Part shown: positions 681-60,414 of the stretch, piece by piece
How the letters are laid out: every line of letters starts with the position of its first letter
Numbering within the stretch: the first letter of the stretch is position 1
NCBI GenBank assembly: GCA_017469545.1
Contig: JAFUGE010000008.1
Coordinates: forward strand, 30,941 to 94,940
Length of the DNA stretch: 64,000 nucleotides
Source of the DNA: Clostridia bacterium
GTDB lineage: Bacteria; Bacillota; Clostridia; TANB77; UBA1234
Direction of reading: 5' to 3'
Notes under the pieces: model-generated
Told to the model about the DNA's origin: nothing
Seen by the model: only the letters and a program-made list of their open reading frames with translations
Database searches by the model: none
Made by a program: the position numbers and the translations under genes

Positions 681-3155
681 TTATTTCTTGAAATCAATGA
701 TTACAGAATCATTGCTGTTCATATTCGACAAATCAACGGTTGCACCGCTATTATCATTTTTCTTTCTTAGAATGGAAGAATCCACTACGACGTCTACTAC
801 GTTGTCGTCGCTGGATGCCATTCTTTCTTTGTCATTATTTCCAGTAAAAAAGTGTGAATCTGCCTTTGCATTTTCTGAAGCAGAGGAGCTATTGGCGTCT
901 GCATATAGTTGGAAATCGTATTTCGAGCATTTATGCTCTTCATAATATTTCTTATCAATAAAGTCTGCCATACCACGGCCAACGATTGTCTTACCGCCAG
1001 CATTTTTTGTCTTATAAATACATTGTTTGAATTTAAGTCCCACAATCTTGCCAGCCTTGTAATATTCTTCTGGCGCTTTCTTCTCGGCCATTAATGCTTC
1101 CGTTTGTGCCTTAGAACTGTCTGCATCTTTGTCGTCGTAAATCTTCTTTGCACGATATGTCCATTTCTTGTATTTACCAAGTTCGCCTTCCCAGAAAATA
1201 CTTTCTTCGTTCGTCATATCACCAAATAGAATTTGTGTTTTTGTATTGGTAATCACAACGTCTTTAAAATAGGCAAGGGAAGAAGTTTTCGTTAATTGTG
1301 ACAAGTTCTGTATTGTAATTAATGTTCCGCAGCGATACTTTCTAAACAAAGTAAAGAATGCTTCTGTATCTTTGTTGACGTATAGTGGGAACTCGTCAAT
1401 GTAAATGAAGTGTGGCGTTCTTGTGTTTTCGTCGCCAGGTCTTCTAAGCACGGCATCTTTAAATGACAAGATTACAAACATACCAAATGCTTTTTGGTGT
1501 GTTTCACCCAAGTCACCTTGTCTTGTACAAGCGGTGATTATTTCGCCGTTTTGAAGTGCTTTATCTAGGTCAATATTGTTATTTCTGCTACAAAGTACTC
1601 TCTTTACACCAGGATTTCTAAGGAAGTTGTCAAGCTGCGTAATCGCACCATACACGTGCTTTTCCGTCTCTTTTCTGCCGCTACCATAAGTAGAAGCGAT
1701 TTCATATCCGTGGATATTTACTGGTGGTTTATAGAAGTTCTTTTCAAAGTATCCGATTAATGATTTGTAATCTTCAGCAAGCTGAGGGTCTTTTTTCAAG
1801 ACTTCGCACATTTCTTCTGCGATATCAAAGTTATTTAAAATGCTAAGCATATCTTCTAGTGTAGGAATTTCGCCATTATGCATTCTTGGATATACTAGCT
1901 TTAATAGAATTGCCAAATTTTCGAAAGCCTGTTGCGTCACGTTTGCGAAGAAAGCACTGCTCTCGCTATTTTCTGCTTGGTACATTCCTTTTAATACCGT
2001 AGAAATGATAGCTGCAACTTTGGCTGGGTCTTTTCCTGTGAATGGGTTAATACCGTACGAGTTAGGGTCCATCGGGTCGATCACATTAACGTCCATACTG
2101 TAGGCATTTGCTACTTTTCTTACTCTTTCAATACAAGCATTATCAGGCGCAACTAGCGTAAATCCAAGGCCTCTGTAGTAGATTTCGTTTGTTGCTGGGT
2201 CTACGTAGGTAATCATGTCTTTCATGTAGTCTTTGTATTCTTTCATTCTGCTATCTCTTGGCTTTAAGAAGTTAAGAGTAAAGTTTCTGTTTAGGTAGTC
2301 ATTGCTATAAGGAACTGTCATATCTGCAAGGCCTGTTTGCAAAGCGTTGTAGCCAAGCTTTTTGCTTAATTCTCTGAAGAAATACTTTCTTTCGATATCA
2401 TTTGCACACATTGGTTCAACCATGGTAGAAGTTTTACCTGTACCCGTGGCACCTTGAACCATTGTTGCTTCAAATCTTTTCTTTTCTGGAATGAAAACAA
2501 CTTTACCTGTCTTATCGTCCACACAAATTGGTGCATTGCACTCGAAGGCCTCTGGCAATGTATCTTTCTTTTTCTTGAAGCTTAGCTTTGTTCCACCGTA
2601 TTCCTCGAAAGATTCAATCCAATCAGAATCGCCGTCAACCACATTTCCCATATAGTATTTCCATCTTCCTCTGAAAGTAGATACGGGAATAATTAAGGAA
2701 AGTCCAGCAACCGCAGGGGCGATAACCTCTGGCATATTCGTCGCGATATATTTAAAGTTACTTAAGTTCATTAAGCAGAAGTAAATAATTTCATTAGACC
2801 ATTGTGCCGTCATTCCTAGGAATATTCCATAAAAGCATAGGGAGAAGAATACGAAAAACTTCATTGGATGCCTTAGGGTAACATTCATTGGCGAGCCACA
2901 CATAAATTGGAAACCAGCGACACACGCTAAATATGCAAGTGTATATCCGATTGGCGACCAGTATGTAGCAAGCTCTCCCGTAAGAAGTACGCGGAATAGT
3001 TCAGCAACTCTATCTACTGCCAATACGACGCAAATAACGGCAAAGATATATGCGACGTATTCGTTAAGATTCACTTTCATTTTTTCTACTAAAAACCACC
3101 CTAATAGAAACAATATTAGGACAGCTACTAATCCATAAATAATATAGGTTAACAT
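681..3155 (-). CDS. type IV secretion coupling protein-like ATPase (TrwB/TraD/VirD4 family)
   Basis: N-terminal hydrophobic helices, Walker A QGATGTGKTS (TrwB-like GATGTGK), Walker B-like HFIYIDEF, downstream TLITIQNLSQL motif; GGAGG RBS before Met at 3155 (11th codon of the tracked ORF). Confidence 0.5.
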   Translation of the reverse strand: MLTYIIYGLVAVLILFLLGWFLVEKMKVNLNEYVAYIFAVICVVLAVDRVAELFRVLLTGELATYWSPIGYTLAYLACVAGFQFMCGSPMNVTLRHPMKFFVFFSLCFYGIFLGMTAQWSNEIIYFCLMNLSNFKYIATNMPEVIAPAVAGLSLIIPVSTFRGRWKYYMGNVVDGDSDWIESFEEYGGTKLSFKKKKDTLPEAFECNAPICVDDKTGKVVFIPEKKRFEATMVQGATGTGKTSTMVEPMCANDIERKYFFRELSKKLGYNALQTGLADMTVPYSNDYLNRNFTLNFLKPRDSRMKEYKDYMKDMITYVDPATNEIYYRGLGFTLVAPDNACIERVRKVANAYSMDVNVIDPMDPNSYGINPFTGKDPAKVAAIISTVLKGMYQAENSESSAFFANVTQQAFENLAILLKLVYPRMHNGEIPTLEDMLSILNNFDIAEEMCEVLKKDPQLAEDYKSLIGYFEKNFYKPPVNIHGYEIASTYGSGRKETEKHVYGAITQLDNFLRNPGVKRVLCSRNNNIDLDKALQNGEIITACTRQGDLGETHQKAFGMFVILSFKDAVLRRPGDENTRTPHFIYIDEFPLYVNKDTEAFFTLFRKYRCGTLITIQNLSQLTKTSSLAYFKDVVITNTKTQILFGDMTNEESIFWEGELGKYKKWTYRAKKIYDDKDADSSKAQTEALMAEKKAPEEYYKAGKIVGLKFKQCIYKTKNAGGKTIVGRGMADFIDKKYYEEHKCSKYDFQLYADANSSSASENAKADSHFFTGNNDKERMASSDDNVVDVVVDSSILRKKNDNSGATVDLSNMNSNDSVIIDFKK

Positions 3156-3286
3156 GTTTACCTCCATAAGCTTACTTGTTGACAAATCAACACATCTATA
3201 TTATCCTATATTTTGAGGAAAAAAACAAGTCATTTTGCGTAATTTGTTCAAAAAATTATGTAAATATTAGGAAAAGAAAGGTGGAA

Positions 3287-11124: not shown

Positions 11125-11805
11125 ATGAGAAGAGGAAAGAAATATCAAGATAGCGTTAAAATGATTGATAAGACAGCATCTTATGATTCAAAAGCAGCGC
11201 TAGAATTAATCGAAAAAATGCCAAAGGCTAAATTTGACGAAACTGTTGAAGCTCATTTTAGACTAGGTGTTGATTCAAAACACGCTGATCAACAAGTTAG
11301 AGGCGTTATCGTATTACCTCATGGAACAGGTAAGACACAAAGAGTTTTAGTATTTGCAAAGGGAGAGAAGGCTAAAGAGGCTGAGGCTGCCGGTGCAGAT
11401 TTTGTTGGAGCTGAAGATTTAGTTCCAAGAATTGAGAAAGAGAACTGGTTCGATTACGATGTAATCGTAGCTACACCAGATATGATGGGTATCATTGGTA
11501 GATTAGGTAAAGTTTTAGGACCAAAAGGTTTAATGCCTAACCCAAAATCAGGAACAGTTACAATGGATGTTGCCAAAGCTGTTAGCGAGATTAAATCTGG
11601 TAAGATTGAATATCGTTTAGACAAAAACAACATTATCCATTGCCCAATTGGAAAGCTTTCTTTCGGCGCTGAGAAGTTAAATGATAACTTCCAAGCTTTA
11701 TACGAAGCAATCGTTAAAGCAAAACCAGCTGCTGCAAAGGGACAATACATTAAGAGTATGTCTTTATCAAGCACAATGGGCCCTGGCGTTCCAGTAAAAG
11801 CTTAA
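11125..11805 (+). CDS. rplA: 50S ribosomal protein L1
   Basis: MRRGKKYQ..., position after rplK. Confidence 0.9.
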
Positions 11806-12047
11806 TAACCAAAGACAGTAGGTTGCAAATGTTTGCATAAAATATTCCTACCGAGGTAAAGGATCGGATTTTATCCAAGACATTTATTTCGGTGGAATAG
11901 ATGTCTTGGATTTTTTTGTAGGGGCGGTGTAATACGCCGCCCGCGGGTAGCGTACTACGCTACCCCTACAATGAATTTGGGCGCCCGGAGGGTGACCAAC
12001 GGACAGCCTACCACAATGATGGATTATCAATAAGAGGAGGTGTAAAA
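11806..12047 (+). promoter_or_regulatory. rplJ leader region with hairpins and an embedded REP doublet
   Basis: Hairpin CCAAGACAT...ATGTCTTGG (11877-11910) plus REP doublet 11918-11969, in the position of the L10(L12)4 autoregulatory leader. Confidence 0.3.
11918..11969. repeat. inverted doublet of REP-like elements with compensatory stem variants
   Basis: GTAGGGGCGGTGTAATACGCCGCCCG + CGGGTAGCGTACTACGCTACCCCTAC; each stem carries paired compensatory substitutions relative to consensus. Confidence 0.75.
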
Positions 12048-25203: not shown

Positions 25204-25231
25204 TTGCATTTTTCTGAAAATGTGTTATAAT
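25204..25231 (+). promoter_or_regulatory. candidate promoter for the large ncRNA
   Basis: TTGCAT, 16-bp spacer, TGT-TATAAT extended -10. Confidence 0.4.
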
Positions 25232-25237
25232 AACAAG

Positions 25238-25810
25238 TAGTGGTGTGCTATTCTAGTGATTGCTATGGATTGCGAGGACGGGCCTAAAAATCCGTTGAAA
25301 GGGCATATCGATGAAGTTCTTTAGTTTGGCTCGCGACGCCCAGTCGAGGGTCTCTCTAGGGAGTAAGGTTTAAGGGCGATCTGCAATGGCATGTAGGCGT
25401 TGACCCTTCTACCGTGGAGACACTTCAGTGCGAGCAAAATTTCGCCTGAAGTGATAAACCTGCAAGGCTAATATATTTTGCAAAAAATATTCGTTAGTAC
25501 ACAGTGTAGCTTTCCTTGAGTGAGAATGGCGAATTGCAAATGAAACCATTGTTGCAAAAGAGGATAAACAATCATTTTAGCGATACCGAGGAAATCTCCT
25601 AGAGCATTCTATTAAGAGATGCATTGAGGATTGAAGTGTGGACTAAGTGGTAATCTAGGCTCTTTACCGGCGACGTAAAGATGCTGCCTTTAAAGGGAAA
25701 CCGCTAAGATGGCGATATCTTAGGAGGCAGTAGGGAAATCCTTCTAGACCTAAGCCGCAAAATTTACTTGATGCATTGCCACTACTATTTTTTTAAAATA
25801 ATTGATGGAG
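25238..25810 (+). ncRNA. ole: candidate OLE (ornate large extremophilic) RNA
   Basis: ~575-nt non-coding, stop-rich, GC-enriched structured region immediately upstream of a small 4-TM protein gene, near spoIIIA; assignment by context and size only. Confidence 0.4.
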
Positions 25811-25814
25811 ATTG

Positions 25815-25840
25815 CGGGCAGCGTGGTACGCTGCCCCTAC
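25815..25840. repeat. REP-like element, reverse orientation
   Basis: CGGGCAGCGTGGTACGCTGCCCCTAC. Confidence 0.8.
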
Positions 25841-25875
25841 ACAATATTTTGAATACAGTATGAAAGGTGAGAAAG

Positions 25876-54313: not shown

Positions 54314-54995
54314 ATGGAAATAAAGACGAAGAAACGAATCAAAATAATAGTTGATATTTTGATGTATGTTTGTTTGATTACACTAATGGGTTATCATATT
54401 ACAAATAATCTCATTCATGAAATTCTTCGGAACAACTATATTTGTTCTATTTATCATACATAATGCTTTCAATTTCAAATGGTATATGACACTGTTTAAA
54501 GGGAAGCACGACTTGCGTAGAAATTTTCACATATTAATTAATGCACTGCTATTAGTTGCAATGATATTAACGATAATAAGTGGCGTTATGATGTCTCGAA
54601 GTTTATATACATTTGTTAATTTTGGCAAAGCAGCACTTGCAAGAAGAATGCATTTGATTGCGAATAGTTGGACTCTTGTTTTAGTATCAATTCATTTAGG
54701 AATGCATCTTACGCCAATGACGTCAAAAATTAGGACAAAACTGCAAGCAAGTAGAATTAAGTATGCGGTATATGTAATCCTTGTGTTATTTGTGATCCTT
54801 GGAATATATTTATTTATCAAAGCTGGATTCTTCCAAGATATGTTTGGCATCACTAGTTTTAAGTTTATGGATACAGAAGAAAATCCAGTAGTGTTTTATT
54901 TGAAGCAATTAGATATATCACTTACGATAGCATTGGTTACCCATTGGTTATGGAATGTGAAAAGCGCTAGGAGGAAATATGAGAAAACTAGATAA
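54314..54995 (+). pseudogene. DUF4405-family membrane protein with +1 frameshift (extra C at 54428)
   Basis: Frame A MEIKTKKRIKIIVDILMYVCLITLMGYHITNNLIHEILRNNYICSIYHT*; removing c54428 gives ...LIHEILGTTIFVLFIIHNAFNFKWY continuing into the tracked 192-aa ORF. Confidence 0.55.
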
Positions 54996-55729: not shown

Positions 55730-55759
55730 TTGACAAAAGTGGCCTTTTGGAGGTATAAT
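55730..55759 (+). promoter_or_regulatory. sigma-A promoter for tcdA copy 1
   Basis: TTGACA, 18 bp, TATAAT. Confidence 0.45.
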
Positions 55760-55771
55760 GGCGAATATGCA

Positions 55772-55795
55772 GGGCAGCTTTGTTTGGCTGCCCGC
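55772..55795. repeat. degenerate REP-like hairpin
   Basis: GGGCAGC TTTGTTT GGCTGCCCG lacking GTAG flank. Confidence 0.4.
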
Positions 55796-55823
55796 AAATG
55801 ATGTACATAAAAGAGGGGACGAA

Positions 55824-56576
55824 ATGTTAAATCAATTTTCAAGAACAGAATTGTTGATAGGTAAAGAGGCATTAGAGAAACTAAGTAATGCAAAGGTTGC
55901 CGTTGTTGGAATCGGAGGAGTTGGCTCTTATGTAGTGGAGGGCTTGGTCCGCGCTGGAGTAGGAAATTTTGTGTTAGTGGACGACGATAAGGTTTGCCTT
56001 ACGAATTTAAATAGACAGCTAATTGCTACGAGGAAGACGGTTGGAAAGTATAAAGTGGAAATGGCAAAGGAAAGAATTTTAGAGATAAATCCAAAGGCGA
56101 ATGTGGAAACTTTTCAGGAATTTTTCTTGCCGGAGACCGAAGGAATTATTGACGAGAGTGTGGATTACATTGTGGATGCGGTGGATACCGTTACGGCAAA
56201 AATCGAACTTGTGATGAGAGCGAATAAGCTTCATATTCCGATTATTTCTTGTATGGGTACGGGCAACAAATTAGACCCTACCAGATTTGAGGTAACAGAT
56301 ATTTTTAAAACAAGTGTATGTCCACTTGCTAAAGTAATGCGAAAGGAATTAAGGACGAGAGGAATCAAGCATTTAAAAGTGTTGTATTCCAAAGAGGAAC
56401 CGATAAAACCTGACGAGACTTTGGAATGCAGCTGTAAGACGGGCTGTATCTGCCCTCCTGGAACGGTCAGAAAATGTACGCAGAGAAACCAAGTGCCGGG
56501 AAGTATTTCTTTTGTGCCATCCGTTGCCGGATTAATCATTAGTGGCGAAGTAATTAAAGATATTATCAATCTGTAG
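55824..56576 (+). CDS. tcdA: tRNA threonylcarbamoyladenosine dehydratase (TcdA/CsdL, ThiF/MoeB family), copy 1
   Basis: Rossmann VAVVGIGGVGSYVVEGLVRAGVGNFVLVDDDKVCLTNLNRQ; stop codon TAG lies inside GTAG of the following REP. Confidence 0.75.
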   Translation: MLNQFSRTELLIGKEALEKLSNAKVAVVGIGGVGSYVVEGLVRAGVGNFVLVDDDKVCLTNLNRQLIATRKTVGKYKVEMAKERILEINPKANVETFQEFFLPETEGIIDESVDYIVDAVDTVTAKIELVMRANKLHIPIISCMGTGNKLDPTRFEVTDIFKTSVCPLAKVMRKELRTRGIKHLKVLYSKEEPIKPDETLECSCKTGCICPPGTVRKCTQRNQVPGSISFVPSVAGLIISGEVIKDIINL

Positions 56577-57379: not shown

Positions 57380-57507
57380 AGGGAAATAGCTGAATTACTA
57401 TTTGTATGACACTATTAAAAGCTATGGACTAAGCAAAGAAAAAATGAAAAATTGTAGAATTAAAAGTTGCATTTTAATTTTTAATTTGCTAGAATTAAAT
57501 CGTAAAT

Positions 57508-57533
57508 TGTAGGGGCAGCGTATCACGCTGCCC
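57508..57533. repeat. REP-like element (exact consensus)
   Basis: GTAGGGGCAGCGTATCACGCTGCCCG. Confidence 0.8.
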
Positions 57534-57556
57534 GTGAAGAAAGGAGGAAAACACAC

Positions 57557-57619
57557 ATGACAAACCTTGTAACCGTTGGGGCTGTACACACACACACACA
57601 CACACAAGTAATTCGTTAA
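57557..57619 (+). CDS. candidate 20-aa small ORF MTNLVTVGAVHTHTHTQVIR containing the (CA)10 tract
   Basis: AAGGAGG RBS 57541-57547, ATG 57557, stop TAA 57617; could be fortuitous. Confidence 0.2.
   Translation: MTNLVTVGAVHTHTHTQVIR
57588..57607. repeat. (CA)10 dinucleotide microsatellite
   Basis: cacacacacacacacacaca read directly; only SSR of this kind in the window. Confidence 0.9.
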
Positions 57620-57656
57620 ATATAGAATTTTATAATAAAATACGCGATGGATAAAG

Positions 57657-57767
57657 TTTCCTAAAAGGGCGCGTACAGACGGGAGTAAAATGTGCACGAA
57701 AACAATTTGCAGAGACAAATTGAAATGCACATTTTAGTCCTGTGTGTACATGTCCCTTTTAGGAAAC
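57657..57767 (+). promoter_or_regulatory. long imperfect inverted repeat (42-nt arms, 27-nt loop) followed by T-run upstream of pilin-like gene
   Basis: GTTTCCTAAAAGGGCGCGTACAGACGGGAGTAAAATGTGCAC vs TGCACATTTTAGTCCTGTGTGTACATGTCCCTTTTAGGAAAC then CTTTTTGTTTC. Confidence 0.45.
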
Positions 57768-57805
57768 TTTTTGTTTCAATAAAAAATAATGGGAGGTAAC
57801 AATTT

Positions 57806-59452
57806 ATGAACAAAAGATCAAACAAAGGCATATCTTTAATTGCCTTAATCATAACAATAATCGTAATAATAATTTTAGCAGCAATTGTTATTGGTGGAGT
57901 GTTCAACACACCTAATGACGCAAAATTCGCAAACTTCTGCCAAGAGTATGACAGAGTGCAAACAGCAATTCAATTAAAGTACTATGAATTATATCAAAAA
58001 TATGCAATATCAGTTTCAACAGAAGTGCCAACACATTATGAAATGTATAATGAAGTAGCAACAGGCACAAAGGCAGACACGCTAACAGGAGCAAATAATA
58101 TAGACTCAGATAAATGGGTAACAATATCAGAAAGTCAGTGGGGAATAGGCAGTAACAAGATATGTGCAAAGCCATCATTTGCTGGTAATTGGTATGTAAG
58201 ATTAAATGATGGAAAACTAGCCTATGCAGGATTTGAAAAAGGCGAGCAAGATATGTATTATACACCTACAGCACATACAACAGGAAATAGGACTGCACAA
58301 GCGGTGGATTATTTTAATGGATTAACTTTAGGGACTGCCGCAGATAGTGAAACGCAAAGTGGACTTTTGGCACTAGTGCTAGGCGAAGGTGGAGGAAGTA
58401 GCAATGGAAGTGGAGACGGTGGTGCAGAAACATTACCAGAGCTAGAAGAAGGCGAAGCATATCTAGCACAAGTAGCCAAAGTAGGAGACTATGTAAAATA
58501 TGTAGCAGATAGTGGCACATGGACACCAGACCCAACTAAAACAGGAAACAGTAATGCAACACCACTAAGAACAGATACAAGTACTGCTTGGAGAGTATGG
58601 GAAAACAATGGAACAACAGTAACACTAATACCAACAAGCCCAGTAAACACATTATATTTAGGAACTAGGGCAAGTACAAGTAACACAAGTTCTCCAGCGC
58701 CAACAGATGATACAGGTGCAACATATGGAGTAGCAGGATATGTGAATGGACCAAGCCTAATGAATGAAATAGCAAGAACATTATATAGTAAGAGTGGATA
58801 CACTAGCAGCGTAAGACATATGACATATGAAGATATACAAGCAAAATTAAAAACACCATTTACACCGACAGCAAATAAATATGCGTATTTTAAAAGTGGA
58901 GATAGCTCGACGTTATCTGCAGGTTCAGCCTATATGAAGAGGACACACACGACAAGTTTATATAATGGAATCACAGAGCCAAGATTTTATACCTGGGACA
59001 CAGATGGAGTAACATATGATACAGACCCAACTTCAGAAACATATCAAGTAAGGACAGATAGTAATGGAAGGACATATATGACACCAACAACAGGACACCC
59101 AGTATATGTGACATATACATATATCAAATCTTCGATAGCAGCAGATAATTGGGCAGATGTAACAGATACACATGCAACAGGCACAACAACTTATGGAAAT
59201 ATTTTGGGAGGTTCGTATAGTTGGCTGGCCTCGCCGTGCGTGTATTTGAGCACTGGCGGTGCGCACTTCTACATGCGCATTGTTGCTTCGGATTACTTGA
59301 ACGGCAATTCCTTGGCTGGCTCGCATGGCGAATCGGCCTCTCGCAGCAATAGTCTTCGCCCCCTAGTAACGCTTAGCTCTTCGGTCAGAGTAAATACAAC
59401 GGATAGTGCCAAAAACGGCTCTACAACAGCAAATGCATGGATAATCAAATAA
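57806..59452 (+). CDS. large N-terminally anchored pilin-like surface protein (prepilin-like leader lacking Glu5), Thr/Gly/Ser-rich
   Basis: MNKRSNKGISLIALIITIIVIIILAAIV resembles class III signal peptide/KG-cleavage site; codon usage (ACA/GCA/GGA-rich) and a GC-rich C-terminal segment 59210-59400 differ from neighbours. Confidence 0.45.
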   Translation: MNKRSNKGISLIALIITIIVIIILAAIVIGGVFNTPNDAKFANFCQEYDRVQTAIQLKYYELYQKYAISVSTEVPTHYEMYNEVATGTKADTLTGANNIDSDKWVTISESQWGIGSNKICAKPSFAGNWYVRLNDGKLAYAGFEKGEQDMYYTPTAHTTGNRTAQAVDYFNGLTLGTAADSETQSGLLALVLGEGGGSSNGSGDGGAETLPELEEGEAYLAQVAKVGDYVKYVADSGTWTPDPTKTGNSNATPLRTDTSTAWRVWENNGTTVTLIPTSPVNTLYLGTRASTSNTSSPAPTDDTGATYGVAGYVNGPSLMNEIARTLYSKSGYTSSVRHMTYEDIQAKLKTPFTPTANKYAYFKSGDSSTLSAGSAYMKRTHTTSLYNGITEPRFYTWDTDGVTYDTDPTSETYQVRTDSNGRTYMTPTTGHPVYVTYTYIKSSIAADNWADVTDTHATGTTTYGNILGGSYSWLASPCVYLSTGGAHFYMRIVASDYLNGNSLAGSHGESASRSNSLRPLVTLSSSVRVNTTDSAKNGSTTANAWIIK

Positions 59453-59460
59453 ATCATAGG

Positions 59461-59484
59461 TGGCGCTCGATTGGGCGCCATTTT
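59461..59484 (+). terminator. rho-independent terminator
   Basis: TGGCGC/GCGCCA stem + TTTT. Confidence 0.5.
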
Positions 59485-59661: not shown

Positions 59662-60414
59662 ATGTTAAATCAGTTTTCAAGAACAGAATTATTAATAGGC
59701 AAAGAAGCCTTAGATAAATTAAGTAATGCAAAAGTAGCTGTTATAGGAATTGGAGGAGTCGGCTCTTATGTGGTTGAAGGGTTGGTAAGAGCGGGAGTTG
59801 GCAATTTCGTTTTAGTTGATGATGATAAAGTTTGTTTGACTAATTTAAATAGACAGCTTATTGCTACAAGAAAAACAGTTGGAAAATATAAAGTTGAAAT
59901 AGCGAAGGAAAGAATTTTAGAAATCAATCCAAAAGCTAATGTAGAAATTTATCAAGAGTTTTTCTTGCCAGAGACACAAGGCATCATTGATGAAAGTGTT
60001 GATTACATAGTGGACTGTGTTGATACAGTTACTGCAAAAATTGATCTTGTGATGAGAGCAGATAAGCTAAACATACCAATTATTTCTTGCATGGGAACAG
60101 GCAATAAACTAGACCCAACAAGATTTGAAGTTACTGATGTTTTTAAGACTAGTGTTTGCCCGCTTGCTAAAGTGATGCGAAAAGAATTAAGAGCAAGAGG
60201 TATCAAACATTTAAAAGTGCTATATTCAAAAGAGGAGCCAATAAAGCCAGATGAAACACTGGAATGTAGTTGCAAAACAGGCTGTATATGCCCACCAGGT
60301 ACGGTAAGAAAATGTACACAGAGAAATCAAGTGCCAGGAAGTATTTCGTTCGTACCTTCTGTTGCTGGATTAATTATTGCTGGCGAAGTTATAAAAGATA
60401 TCATAAAAATGTAG
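59662..60414 (+). CDS. tcdA: tRNA threonylcarbamoyladenosine dehydratase (TcdA/CsdL), copy 2
   Basis: ~95% aa identical to copy 1 but many synonymous nucleotide differences; stop TAG inside following REP. Confidence 0.75.
   Translation: MLNQFSRTELLIGKEALDKLSNAKVAVIGIGGVGSYVVEGLVRAGVGNFVLVDDDKVCLTNLNRQLIATRKTVGKYKVEIAKERILEINPKANVEIYQEFFLPETQGIIDESVDYIVDCVDTVTAKIDLVMRADKLNIPIISCMGTGNKLDPTRFEVTDVFKTSVCPLAKVMRKELRARGIKHLKVLYSKEEPIKPDETLECSCKTGCICPPGTVRKCTQRNQVPGSISFVPSVAGLIIAGEVIKDIIKM

What the first reader, a model, noticed from the sequence alone, without database searches (positions are those of the whole stretch)
57508..59484. Large pilin-like surface protein gene preceded by REP, a (CA)10 microsatellite inside a 20-codon ORF, and a long hairpin
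Gene 57806-59452 encodes a 548-aa Thr/Gly/Ser-rich protein. Its N-terminus MNKRSNKG|ISLIALIITIIVIIILAAIV resembles a class III (prepilin) signal peptide but lacks the Glu at +5. Its codon usage is strongly A-ending and it contains a sharply GC-rich segment (59210-59400), suggesting foreign or mosaic origin. Upstream, an RBS-equipped mini-ORF (57557-57619, MTNLVTVGAVHTHTHTQVIR) carries a (CA)10 tract at 57588-57607 encoding His-Thr repeats. Dinucleotide SSRs of this length are rare in bacteria and are classic slipped-strand phase-variation switches. A 2-nt unit change would shift the mini-ORF frame, giving possible translational coupling or attenuation control of the surface protein.
Basis: partly seen in the sequence, partly recalled or inferred. 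Interest (0 to 1): 0.6.

Follow-up and report, generated by a model that had tools for sequence, protein, structure and literature searches.

The report
Repeat-switched, hypervariable surface lectin gene
A gut Clostridia surface-protein gene appears to carry two separate variation devices: a CA-repeat "counter" in a small upstream reading frame that probably flips transcription on and off, and a retroelement-type hypervariable binding tip. The same repeat switch recurs in front of other surface genes and in phages.

Summary

**The switch.** The (CA)10 tract (57587-57606) lies in an RBS-equipped leader ORF. A 114-nt hairpin plus T-run follows it, then the 548-aa gene.
- Tract length differs (10, 16, >=13, >=11.5 units) between assemblies that are otherwise identical.
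- The same module recurs upstream of homologues, other surface genes and a phage tail-fibre-like gene. It consists of RBS, ATG, a near-invariant 19-23-nt box, a dinucleotide repeat and a terminator.
- In 13 of 14 chromosomal loci, exactly one repeat frame gives a leader ORF that stops at or inside the terminator's 5' arm.
- This matches the proven Streptococcus gallolyticus pil1 leader-peptide attenuation switch. The window allele is predicted OFF.

**The "GC-rich foreign segment".** Segment 59207-59389 is not foreign. It is an adenine-depleted block typical of a diversity-generating retroelement (DGR) variable region, set in a C-type-lectin-like fold. It recurs in distant homologues and is hypervariable between near-identical ones. 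A related contig holds a true variable-region/template pair. No template or reverse transcriptase for this gene was found.

**Pilin likeness** is weak.

**Verdict:** a new variant of known mechanisms, in an unusual combination.

The parts
57467..57495 (+). Putative promoter TTGCAT-17 nt-TAGAAT for the leader transcript (inferred).
   Evidence: Read from the sequence. The consensus scan did not report it because the -35 hexamer matches only 3 of 6 positions. Its position is analogous to the promoters upstream of the leaders in L005, L006 and L021.
57508..57533 (+). REP-like hairpin (GGGCAGCGT-ATC-ACGCTGCCC), one of 16 copies in the window.
   Evidence: 16 matches with at most 3 mismatches, 0 expected. 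Other copies sit directly after the two ThiF genes (56572, 60410). Its role here is undecided: a 5' stabiliser, or the 3' end of the upstream transcript.
57540..57547 (+). Shine-Dalgarno AAAGGAGG of the leader ORF, 9 nt before the ATG.
   Evidence: All homologous leaders also have an SD-like sequence.
57557..57619 (+). Leader ORF as assembled (short frame, 20 codons, MTNLVTVGAVHTHTHTQVIR).
   Evidence: The stop ends 36 nt before the first paired base of the hairpin.
57565..57587 (+). Conserved box CCTTGTAACCGTTGGGGCTGTAC, directly 5' of the repeat.
   Evidence: It is identical or near-identical in L012, L021, L030, L040, L023, L032, L038, L024, L031, L010/11 and phage L045/46. The only changes seen alter the amino acid (GGG/GAG, GTA/CTA, GTT/GCT); no synonymous change occurs. 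This indicates constraint at nucleotide level. Its function is unexplained.
57587..57606 (+). (CA)10 microsatellite, a three-state frame counter for the leader ORF.
   Evidence: Searches show it is unique in the window. Length is 16 in L001, >=13 in L002 and >=11.5 in L003, with identical flanks.
57640..57654 (+). ATA CGC GAT GGA TAA = IRDG-stop, the end of the long leader frame (reached at n = 12, 15...).
   Evidence: IRDG-stop recurs in L006, L012, L020, L021, L030 and L039 with different Arg codons (AGG/AGA against CGC), Gly codons (GGA/GGT) and stop codons (TAA/TGA).
57655..57776 (+). 114-nt imperfect hairpin plus T-run (TTTTTGTTT), proposed to be the transcription attenuator.
   Evidence: dG -63 kcal/mol. 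Terminator hairpins occupy the same place in 13 of 14 related chromosomal leaders.
57791..57796 (+). Shine-Dalgarno GGGAGG of the main gene.
   Evidence: It lies outside the hairpin, so the hairpin does not occlude it.
57806..59452 (+). 548-aa surface protein gene. The exact protein is NCBI MAG 'Clostridia bacterium' IJ217_02795.
   Evidence: The family has no Pfam model. It comprises 578 clusters at E<=1e-3 among 1.84 billion representatives.
57806..57895 (+). N-terminal basic segment plus a 22-residue hydrophobic helix (KG|ISLIALIITIIVIIILAAIV). It is pilin-like but lacks Phe1 and Glu5.
   Evidence: This is the most conserved part of the family. The family profile hits the pilin alpha1 helix in PDB (8tob, E 1.6e-5). 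GspG and PilA models match below cut-off. N_methyl and Flp1_like match below cut-off in a relative.
58691..59449 (+). C-terminal domain (residues 296-548) with a C-type-lectin-like fold.
59207..59389 (+). Adenine-depleted block, inferred to be a DGR-type variable region (residues about 468-528).
   Evidence: third-position A = 0 over 40 codons. The same block is present in L005, L006, L010, L012, L021 and L039, but absent in L004 and L030 and weaker in L020. It is hypervariable between near-identical proteins. Invariant A makes up 4 of 89 invariant columns inside the block, against 118 of 249 upstream.
59459..59483 (+). Intrinsic terminator of the gene.
   Evidence: stem of 11 pairs, followed by a T-run.

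Best explanation
The locus encodes a cell-surface, lectin-like binding protein placed under two independent programmed-variation devices.

**1. ON/OFF switch.**
- Transcription starts upstream of a short leader ORF.
- Slipped-strand changes in the (CA)n tract inside that ORF set its reading frame.
- With n = 10, 13 or 16, or n = 11 or 14, the ribosome stops 36 or 44 nt before a long terminator hairpin. The hairpin forms and most transcripts end there, so the gene is OFF or low. The window allele is in this state.
- With n = 12 or 15, the leader ORF runs on to ...IRDG-stop. That stop ends 1 nt before the first paired base of the hairpin.
- The terminating ribosome then covers the 5' arm, the terminator cannot form, and RNA polymerase reads into the 548-aa gene (ON).

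**2. Specificity.**
- The C-terminal C-type-lectin-like domain carries an adenine-depleted variable region.
- A diversity-generating retroelement encoded elsewhere in the genome (template repeat plus reverse transcriptase acting in trans) diversifies it, or did so in the past.

**3. Anchoring.** The N-terminal basic-plus-hydrophobic helix anchors the protein in the membrane or feeds it into a pilin-like assembly route.

**Shown:** the anatomy, the repeat-length polymorphism, the frame geometry, the recurrence of both modules in relatives, and a true VR/TR pair in a relative.

**Inferred:** antitermination by the ribosome, activity of a DGR on this particular gene, and surface location.
For: **Switch**
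- The tract is 10 units in the window and 16 in L001, which otherwise differs by 1 mismatch in 16,195 nt (at 54633). Two Logan contigs start inside the tract.
- Two more pairs with 100% identical 400-nt flanks differ only in repeat number: L012/L040 and phage L045/L046.
- The module of RBS, ATG, box, dinucleotide repeat and terminator recurs in 14 chromosomal loci and 2 phage loci.
- In 13 of the 14 chromosomal loci, exactly one frame ends between 8 nt before the hairpin's first paired base and 64 nt inside the hairpin. The other two frames stop 20-90 nt upstream.
- L006, L010 and L030 are currently in the long frame.
- IRDG-stop is kept with synonymous codon differences.
- Experimental precedent: in S. 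gallolyticus pil1/pil3, GCAGA repeats in a leader ORF set whether the stop lies 39 bp before the terminator (low) or within or next to it (high) (PMC3894217).

**Variable region**
- A-depletion is confined to 59207-59389.
- The same block occurs in homologues of 30-35% identity.
- Near-identical proteins differ almost only there, mostly at NNC/NNT codons.
- Almost no invariant A occurs inside the block.
- The fold is C-type-lectin-like.
- L048 holds the 3' end of a related target gene and, about 110 nt after its stop codon, its template. Of 149 aligned nt, 37 mismatch, and 27 of these are at template adenines.
- That fragment aligns in register with residues 473-529 of the window protein.
- L047 holds a homologous template directly after a bAvd gene.
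Against: **Switch**
- The frame geometry alone is only marginally beyond chance. Per-locus P is 0.09-0.26, and Fisher combination over six lineages gives p = 0.053.
- The long-frame spacer of the human-gut group shows no third-position excess (9:5:3). Apart from IRDG-stop there is no evidence that the long peptide is under protein-level selection.
- The promoter is inferred and was not picked up by the consensus scan.
- L038 has the box and repeat but no terminator. In the phage loci all three frames read into the hairpin. The module may therefore act differently in some settings.
- The near-invariant box is not explained by this mechanism.
- Differences in repeat length between assemblies could partly be assembler artefacts.

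**DGR**
- No template repeat, Avd or reverse transcriptase was found in the 64-kb window or within 10 kb of any of the ten relatives examined.
- All recovered copies of the window gene carry the same variable-region sequence.
Confidence: 0.6

Rival explanations
1. The CA tract and conserved box act at the RNA level rather than through the leader reading frame. One version has a trans-acting small RNA or RNA-binding protein recognise the box and repeat in a length-dependent way, as RepG sRNA does with the G-repeat of H. pylori tlpB. Another has the SD-like GRGG in the box promote ribosomal +/-2 slippage on CACACA, so that the frame is chosen during translation.
For: - The 19-23-nt box is conserved at nucleotide level with no synonymous changes across 12 or more loci, including phage. 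The frame model does not explain this.
- The R in GRGG (A or G) would keep pairing with the anti-SD sequence (my reading).
- The spacer is conserved as nucleotides, not as codons.
- L038 lacks a terminator.
- RepG precedent: PMC8295292 (abstract).
Against: - No complementary (UG)n or anti-box sequence exists in the window; the CA tract is the only dinucleotide repeat on either strand.
- No conserved secondary structure involves the box.
- Every leader has an RBS and ATG in frame with the box.
- IRDG-stop sits at the terminator foot with synonymous variation.
Confidence: 0.15
2. The variable region is a relic. The gene descends from a DGR target, but no active retroelement acts on it in this genome, so the block is now an ordinary, fixed lectin surface.
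For: - No template or reverse transcriptase lies in 64 kb.
- The variable region is identical in all recovered copies of the gene.
- Family members exist without the block (L004, L030), showing the feature can be lost or absent.
Against: - Third-position A is still 0 over 40 codons in a gene whose other codons end in A 51% of the time. Without continued constraint, mutation pressure in a 36% GC genome should erode this.
- DGRs acting in trans on remote targets are established knowledge.
- The recovered copies probably come from one study and one strain.
Confidence: 0.3
3. One reading: the GC-rich 3' segment is horizontally acquired or mosaic DNA from a higher-GC donor.
For: An abrupt composition change occurs within one ORF.
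Against: - The change is adenine-specific, not a general GC shift (A 15.5%, with C, G and T each about 28%).
- The same block sits at the homologous position in relatives of only 30-35% identity from different hosts.
- Variation follows the NNC/NNT pattern with invariant non-A columns.
- No donor-like sequence was found.
Confidence: 0.03
4. The N-terminus is only an uncleaved signal-anchor (one transmembrane helix), not a class III (prepilin) signal. The protein is then a membrane-tethered adhesin and never part of a filament.
For: - Phe1 and Glu5 are absent.
- N_methyl and TIGR pilin models match only below threshold.
- No PilB, PilC or PilD lies in the window or in the flanks of relatives.
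- The N-terminal domain model has low confidence.
Against: - The N-terminal 30 residues are the most conserved part of a family that is otherwise about 30% identical.
- The same N-terminus heads small 160-170-aa proteins arranged in tandem like minor pilins (L020).
- The module occurs on many short proteins.
- The family profile matches pilin alpha1 beyond the hydrophobic part (positions 11-66, E 1.6e-5).
Confidence: 0.45

Closest known systems
Streptococcus gallolyticus pil1/pil3 phase variation by leader-peptide attenuation (Danne et al. 2014, PMC3894217)
   Same: - A tandem repeat sits inside an RBS-equipped leader ORF upstream of a stem-loop terminator and a surface-appendage gene.
- In-frame alleles stop about 39 bp (here 36 or 44 nt) before the terminator and give low expression.
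- Out-of-frame alleles stop at or within the terminator and give high expression.
- Switching is stochastic, through slipped-strand change.
   Different: - The repeat unit is 2 nt ((CA)n, or (AT)n/(TA)n in some relatives) rather than GCAGA.
- Only one of the three frames is long.
- A near-invariant 19-23-nt box precedes the repeat, and a conserved IRDG-stop ends the long frame.
- The module is spread over uncultured gut Clostridia, several unrelated surface-gene types and phage.
- Nothing here has been tested experimentally.
DGR variable proteins with C-type-lectin fold (Bordetella phage Mtd, Treponema denticola TvpA)
   Same: - The variable region lies at the C-terminal end of a CLec-like domain.
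- The block is adenine-poor, with variation at the first two positions of NNC/NNT codons.
- Several targets occur per genome.
- A true VR/TR pair (L048) and an Avd-adjacent template (L047) exist for the same scaffold.
   Different: - The cognate template and reverse transcriptase for this gene were not found and, if present, act in trans.
- The variable region ends about 60 nt before the stop codon.
- The protein has a pilin-like N-terminus.
- The target gene is also under a repeat-driven ON/OFF switch. I found no description of that combination in four literature searches.
Type IV pilins and pseudopilins (class III signal peptide, N_methyl motif)
   Same: - A short basic leader ends in Gly, followed by a hydrophobic helix of about 22 residues that is the most conserved part of the family.
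- Small paralogues occur in tandem.
   Different: - There is no Phe/Met at +1 and no Glu at +5.
- Matches are below curated thresholds.
- The protein is 548 aa with a lectin domain.
- No assembly ATPase, platform protein or prepilin peptidase was seen.
REP (repetitive extragenic palindromic) elements
   Same: A short GC-rich hairpin occurs in many intergenic copies (16 in 64 kb), mostly just after genes.
   Different: The sequence family (TGTAGGGGCAGCGTAnnACGCTGCCC) is specific to this lineage. A related TGTAGGGGC motif appears in L031.

Membership tests
SSR-in-leader-peptide transcription attenuation switch (S. gallolyticus pil1 type) | A hypermutable tandem repeat lies inside a translatable leader ORF (RBS plus ATG). 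| tested here: met
   AAAGGAGG-9 nt-ATG, with (CA)10 in codons 11-17. Repeat number differs between otherwise identical assemblies.
SSR-in-leader-peptide transcription attenuation switch (S. gallolyticus pil1 type) | An intrinsic terminator lies between the leader ORF and the regulated gene. | tested here: met
   Hairpin 57655-57768 (dG -63 kcal/mol) plus TTTTTGTTT. It is structural only; termination was not measured.
SSR-in-leader-peptide transcription attenuation switch (S. gallolyticus pil1 type) | Repeat-dependent frames place the leader stop either far upstream of the terminator or at/within it. | tested here: met
   Distances are 36, 44 and 1 nt in the window, and the same pattern holds in 13 of 14 chromosomal loci. 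The chance expectation is not negligible: P = 0.23 for the window alone and 0.053 combined.
SSR-in-leader-peptide transcription attenuation switch (S. gallolyticus pil1 type) | Downstream transcription depends on leader translation and on the repeat frame. | not testable with these tools
   This needs reporter fusions, RT-qPCR or Term-seq.
Diversity-generating retroelement target (variable protein) | The variable region shows adenine-specific variation against a template repeat. | tested here: inconclusive
   - No template for this gene lies in the window or in any fetched locus.
- Indirect evidence: A-depletion, hypervariability with almost no invariant A, and a true pair in the related L048 (27 of 37 mismatches at template A).
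Diversity-generating retroelement target (variable protein) | A DGR-clade reverse transcriptase (and usually Avd) is present in the same genome. | tested here: inconclusive
   - A regex search for RT motifs (YxDD and the G-x-x-SQ motif) found none in the 64-kb window or in L001-L019.
- No RVT Pfam hit appeared among the called neighbours of the relatives.
- bAvd was found only next to a homologous template on L047.
- The rest of the genome could not be reached.
Diversity-generating retroelement target (variable protein) | The variable region is embedded in a C-type-lectin (or Ig-like) fold at the C-terminus. | tested here: met
Type IV pilin / pseudopilin | A class III signal peptide with the G|F(M)xxxE motif (N_methyl, PF07963/TIGR02532). 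| tested here: not met
   The sequence is KG|ISLIA, with no Phe1 or Glu5. There is no Pfam hit at E<=0.1. GspG and PilA NCBIfam models score 13-16 bits against cut-offs of 88 or more. N_methyl gives E = 0.015, below cut-off, in the relative P0071.
Type IV pilin / pseudopilin | A long N-terminal alpha1 helix packed on a small beta-sheet domain. | tested here: inconclusive
   Helices 11-31 and 35-68 are predicted, but pLDDT is 40-69 over residues 31-100 and below 55 over 91-210. The family profile matches pilin alpha1 in PDB at E 1.6e-5.
Type IV pilin / pseudopilin | A prepilin peptidase and assembly ATPase/platform are present in the genome. | not testable with these tools
   None appears in the window among the genes annotated.
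REP element | A short palindromic sequence is repeated many times in intergenic DNA. | tested here: met
   16 copies in 64 kb, against 0 expected.

The most novel reading that the evidence does not exclude
The near-invariant box GTAACCGTTGRGGCTSTAC plus a dinucleotide repeat is a portable phase-variation cassette. Uncultured gut Clostridia and their phages share it. Its nucleotide-level conservation reflects a dedicated trans-acting partner (a protein or sRNA) or programmed +/-2 ribosome slippage on CACACA. Together with DGR mutagenesis, it gives a two-tier system (ON/OFF plus binding specificity) for a previously undescribed class of Glu5-less pilin-like lectins.
Probability: 0.25. Interest if true: 0.8.

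Novelty: new variant of a known kind. Interest (0 to 1): 0.64.

Why it matters
**Phase variation.** In gut Firmicutes it is known mainly from invertible promoters. The leader-peptide/terminator repeat switch has been shown only in S. gallolyticus. This locus suggests the same logic, built on a dinucleotide repeat and a conserved box, is a common and transferable module. It sits in front of surface lectins, pilin-like proteins, a putative cell-wall-anchored (PYTGG-tailed) surface-protein operon and a phage tail-fibre-like gene in uncultured gut and rumen Clostridia.

**Practical use.** The box gives a simple sequence handle for finding contingency loci in metagenomes. It also predicts a read-level heterogeneity signal.

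**Combination.** An ON/OFF repeat switch paired with a DGR-type variable lectin tip on one gene is an unusually explicit case of layered, programmed surface variation. The organisms concerned cannot yet be cultured.

**Annotation.** A sharp, adenine-specific composition break inside an ORF should be read as a DGR variable region, not as foreign DNA.

Tried and rejected
**Template repeat searches**
- blastn with word size 7 in the window and in all 51 fetched loci found none.
- The genome-contig scan for the A-free stretch TGGCTGGCYTCGCCGTGYGT returned 7 further variable regions (two in one MAG), 4 unrelated hits and no template.
- Two viral scans for variable-region patterns gave only spurious hits or nothing.

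**Reverse transcriptase.** A motif regex found none in the window and L001-L019.

**Phage relatives.** The family has none in IMG/VR. The leader-bearing phage has no relative in INPHARED.

**RNA families.** Rfam has no family for the leader at E<=5.

**Structure searches.** Foldseek against PDB found nothing.

**Promoter-spacer role for the repeat.** Rejected, because no -35/-10 pair brackets the tract at 16-18 nt.

**Conserved structure or antiterminator involving the box.** None was found across loci. In the window only, GGGGCTGTACACAC is complementary to the 3' arm of the hairpin (GTGTGTACATGTCCC). This is not seen elsewhere, so it was not used.

**His/Thr starvation attenuator.** Rejected. 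The downstream genes are surface proteins, and some relatives carry AT/TA repeats instead.

**Protein-level selection on the long leader peptide.** Not supported except at IRDG-stop.
Full report
**1. What is there**

- ORF 57806-59452 (+) encodes 548 aa. It is identical to a hypothetical protein of an NCBI MAG named "Clostridia bacterium" (IJ217_02795).
- The gene sits in a housekeeping chromosomal region. This 36% GC genome also carries an OLE RNA.
- From 5' to 3', the upstream region holds the following (coordinates):
  - a plausible promoter, TTGCAT-17-TAGAAT, at 57467-57495. I read it from the sequence; the consensus scan did not report it;
  - a REP-like hairpin at 57508-57533;
  - AAAGGAGG, then 9 nt later the ATG of a 20-codon ORF (57557-57619);
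  - (CA)10 at 57587-57606, inside that ORF;
  - a 114-nt imperfect hairpin at 57655-57768 (dG -63 kcal/mol) followed by TTTTTGTTT;
  - GGGAGG and then the main ATG.
- The 331-nt leader folds far better than shuffles (z = -10).
- The CA tract is the only dinucleotide repeat of 5 or more units in 64 kb. It is not expected by chance.
- The REP is genuine, with 16 copies in the window.
The repeat coordinates are off by one base.

**2. The repeat is unstable**

- The ENA scaffold L001 carries the same locus. Over 16,195 nt it differs from the window by one substitution (at 54633) and one 12-nt gap. That gap is the CA tract, 16 units against 10.
- Two Logan assemblies of other runs carry the identical gene. 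Their contigs begin inside the tract, with at least 13 and at least 11.5 units. A 20-nt tract would not break a k = 31 assembly.
- Two other pairs have 100% identical 400-nt flanks and also differ only in repeat number: L012/L040 and the phage contigs L045/L046.
- Assembler error cannot be excluded for any single case. The pattern is nonetheless consistent across independent pairs.

**3. The leader is a conserved module**

- Distant homologues (30-35% identical) have the same layout upstream of the gene. It consists of RBS, ATG, 3-6 variable codons, a box CCTTGTAACCGTTGGGGCTGTAC (variants differ at 1-3 positions), a dinucleotide repeat, a spacer, a terminator hairpin with T-run, a second RBS and the gene.
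- The repeat is (AC)7-16 in most loci, (AT)7 in L006 and (TA)11 in L020.
- A metagenome scan for the 19-nt core gave 22 hits. Eight are followed directly by (AC)n of 7 or more units. The rest are chance matches in GC-rich DNA.
- The genes downstream of the true hits are of several kinds:
  - family members;
  - other proteins with the same N-terminus (167 aa and 681 aa);
  - an operon ending in a putative cell-wall-anchored surface protein with a PYTGG tail (my reading of the sequence).
- A viral scan found the module between tail genes of a phage, ahead of a tail-fibre-like gene.
- Some relatives lack the module:
  - L005 joins the same promoter and RBS directly to the gene, as if the cassette had been deleted between two ATGAA repeats;
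  - L049 has a decayed leader whose repeat has collapsed to 2.5 units;
  - L004, the closest homologue (50% identity), has an ordinary promoter.

**4. Frame logic**

- For each locus I computed where the leader ORF stops for n, n+1 and n+2 repeat units.
- In the window:
  - n = 10, 13 or 16 gives ...QVIR-stop, ending 36 nt before the hairpin;
  - n = 11 or 14 gives ...HK-stop, ending 44 nt before it;
  - n = 12 or 15 gives a 33-codon peptide ending IRDG-stop, whose last base is 1 nt from the first paired base.
- In 13 of 14 chromosomal loci, exactly one frame reaches the terminator foot or enters the stem.
- L006, L010 and L030 are now in that frame; the others are in short frames. L038 has no terminator.
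- This is the arrangement shown experimentally for S. gallolyticus pil1 and pil3. There, short leaders stop 39 bp before the terminator (low expression). Frameshifted leaders stop at or in it (high expression). The effect needs leader translation (PMC3894217).
- Caveats:
  - With dinucleotide-preserving shuffles of the spacers, the geometry has P = 0.09-0.26 per locus and 0.053 combined over six lineages. The two IRDG lineages are not fully independent.
  - The long-frame spacer of the gut group shows no third-position excess, so most of the long peptide is not under protein-level selection.
  - The exception is the end of the long frame. IRDG-stop is kept in the window and in six gut loci, with Arg as CGC, AGG or AGA, Gly as GGA or GGT, and stop as TAA or TGA. 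This hints at a role for the terminating ribosome or nascent chain.
  - The box shows only amino-acid-changing variants and no synonymous ones, so it is constrained as nucleotides. I could not find a conserved pairing partner for it. It remains unexplained.

**5. The "GC-rich segment" is a DGR-type variable region**

- The composition change is adenine-specific. A is 15.5% in the block against 40% in the rest of the gene. Third-position A is 6.7% against 51%, and reaches 0 over 40 consecutive codons.
- The same block lies at the same position in L005, L006, L010, L012, L021 and L039. It is absent in L004 and L030 and much weaker in L020.
- Proteins that are otherwise nearly identical (P0013, P0004, P0006, P0027, P0032) differ almost only there. 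The constant residues frame it as WLASPCV...F.VR...GVRPLV.
- At DNA level the variable codons are mostly NNC or NNT.
- In five related variable regions, only 4 of 89 invariant columns are A. The figures are 118 of 249 upstream and 32 of 82 downstream.
- A designed Asn-rich "template" peptide retrieved P0121. This pseudo-ORF lies directly after a bAvd gene on L047.
- A sister contig, L048, holds the 3' end of a target gene and, about 110 nt after its stop codon, the template. Of 149 aligned nt, 37 mismatch, and 27 of those are at template adenines.
- That target fragment aligns in register with residues 473-529 of the window protein (E 8e-4) and with P0084 (E 4e-5).
- Structure:
  - the C-terminal half of the AF2 model is confident;
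  - the domain-only model has pLDDT 87.6;
  - Foldseek found nothing.
- No cognate template, Avd or reverse transcriptase was found in the window or within 10 kb of ten relatives. All recovered copies of the window gene share one variable-region sequence. Activity on this gene is therefore inferred, not shown.

**6. Pilin likeness**

- The N-terminus is the most conserved part of the family.
- It recurs on small 160-170-aa proteins in tandem (L020) and on many short proteins.
- The family profile matches the pilin alpha1 helix in PDB (E 1.6e-5).
- Against this, Phe1 and Glu5 are missing. All curated pilin models score below threshold. The N-terminal domain model is poor. No pilus machinery was seen.
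- A plain signal-anchor is about as likely as a pilin-type signal.

**7. Verdict**

- The locus is best read as a surface lectin gene under a repeat-driven leader-peptide attenuator, predicted OFF in this assembly. It carries a DGR-type variable tip.
- Each mechanism is known. The dinucleotide-plus-box form of the switch, its spread to phage and unrelated surface genes, and its pairing with a DGR-type target were not described in the literature I could search.

Noticed in passing
window 25224-25798 (+): A full-length OLE (ornate large extremophilic) RNA scoring 414 bits against Rfam RF01071. A REP copy lies directly after it on the minus strand (25816-25841).
   Followed up: no
window 11791-11918 (+): Ribosomal protein L10 leader (RF00557, 51.9 bits).
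   Followed up: no
window, 16 sites (e.g. 6327, 39857, 56572, 57508, 60410): A REP-like family, TGTAGGGGCAGCGTAnnACGCTGCCC, with variable loop bases. It is mostly on the + strand and mostly just after gene ends. A related TGTAGGGGC motif appears in the unrelated metagenome locus L031.
   Followed up: partly
window 55758-56576 and 59662-60414: Two ThiF/TcdA-like paralogues (94% aa identity), each followed by a REP. They bracket a 3.1-kb segment that holds a flavodoxin-like lipoprotein gene and the 548-aa gene. This suggests a duplication or insertion event.
   Followed up: partly
L005 9880-10030 vs L006 9540-10030: The same promoter, RBS and ATGAA are joined directly to the gene in L005. In L006 about 345 nt of leader, repeat and terminator cassette lie between them, flanked by ATGAAAAAT repeats. 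This looks like gain or loss of the switch by recombination (a 'locked ON' allele).
   Followed up: partly
L045 3053-3175 and L046 2005-2125 (IMG/VR phage contigs): The same box plus (CA)n leader lies between a 554-aa tail-region gene and a tail-fibre-like gene. The two contigs differ by 3 repeat units and have identical flanks. All three frames read into the hairpin, so the mechanism may differ here (possibly translational).
   Followed up: partly
L020 14350-17280: A cluster of a 545-aa Glug-repeat protein, two small proteins (160 and 170 aa) with the same KGISLI..IITIIVIIIL N-terminus, and a 57-aa membrane peptide. It resembles a minor-pilin operon, but no ATPase is nearby.
   Followed up: no
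L047 57-595 and L048 39-715: Short contigs carry DGR parts: bAvd plus template repeat on L047, and the target 3' end plus cognate template on L048. Both share a conserved sequence after the template (aaacaaaccgttgtcctttag). No RT ORF lies on either contig.
   Followed up: partly
L049 8671-10000: Upstream of two tandem family genes lie sequences that look like tRNA genes (my reading; no tRNA scan was run) and a decayed leader, ATGAACAAAGCGCTTGAAACCATTGAGGCTGTACACACAATACAG, whose repeat has collapsed to about 2.5 units.
   Followed up: no
L012 3260-3300, L021, L030, L020 (spacer of gut-group leaders): A conserved small hairpin, GCUUGUAA...UUACAGGU, lies between the repeat and the terminator. Its 5' arm repeats the CUUGUAA of the box, so alternative pairing is possible. 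The window has no such hairpin.
   Followed up: no
L005 9655-9790 and L012 3395-3560: Long near-perfect inverted repeats (MITE-like) lie in the upstream regions of family genes.
   Followed up: no
window 681-3185 (-): An 834-aa ORF with no Pfam match at E<=1e-5.
   Followed up: no
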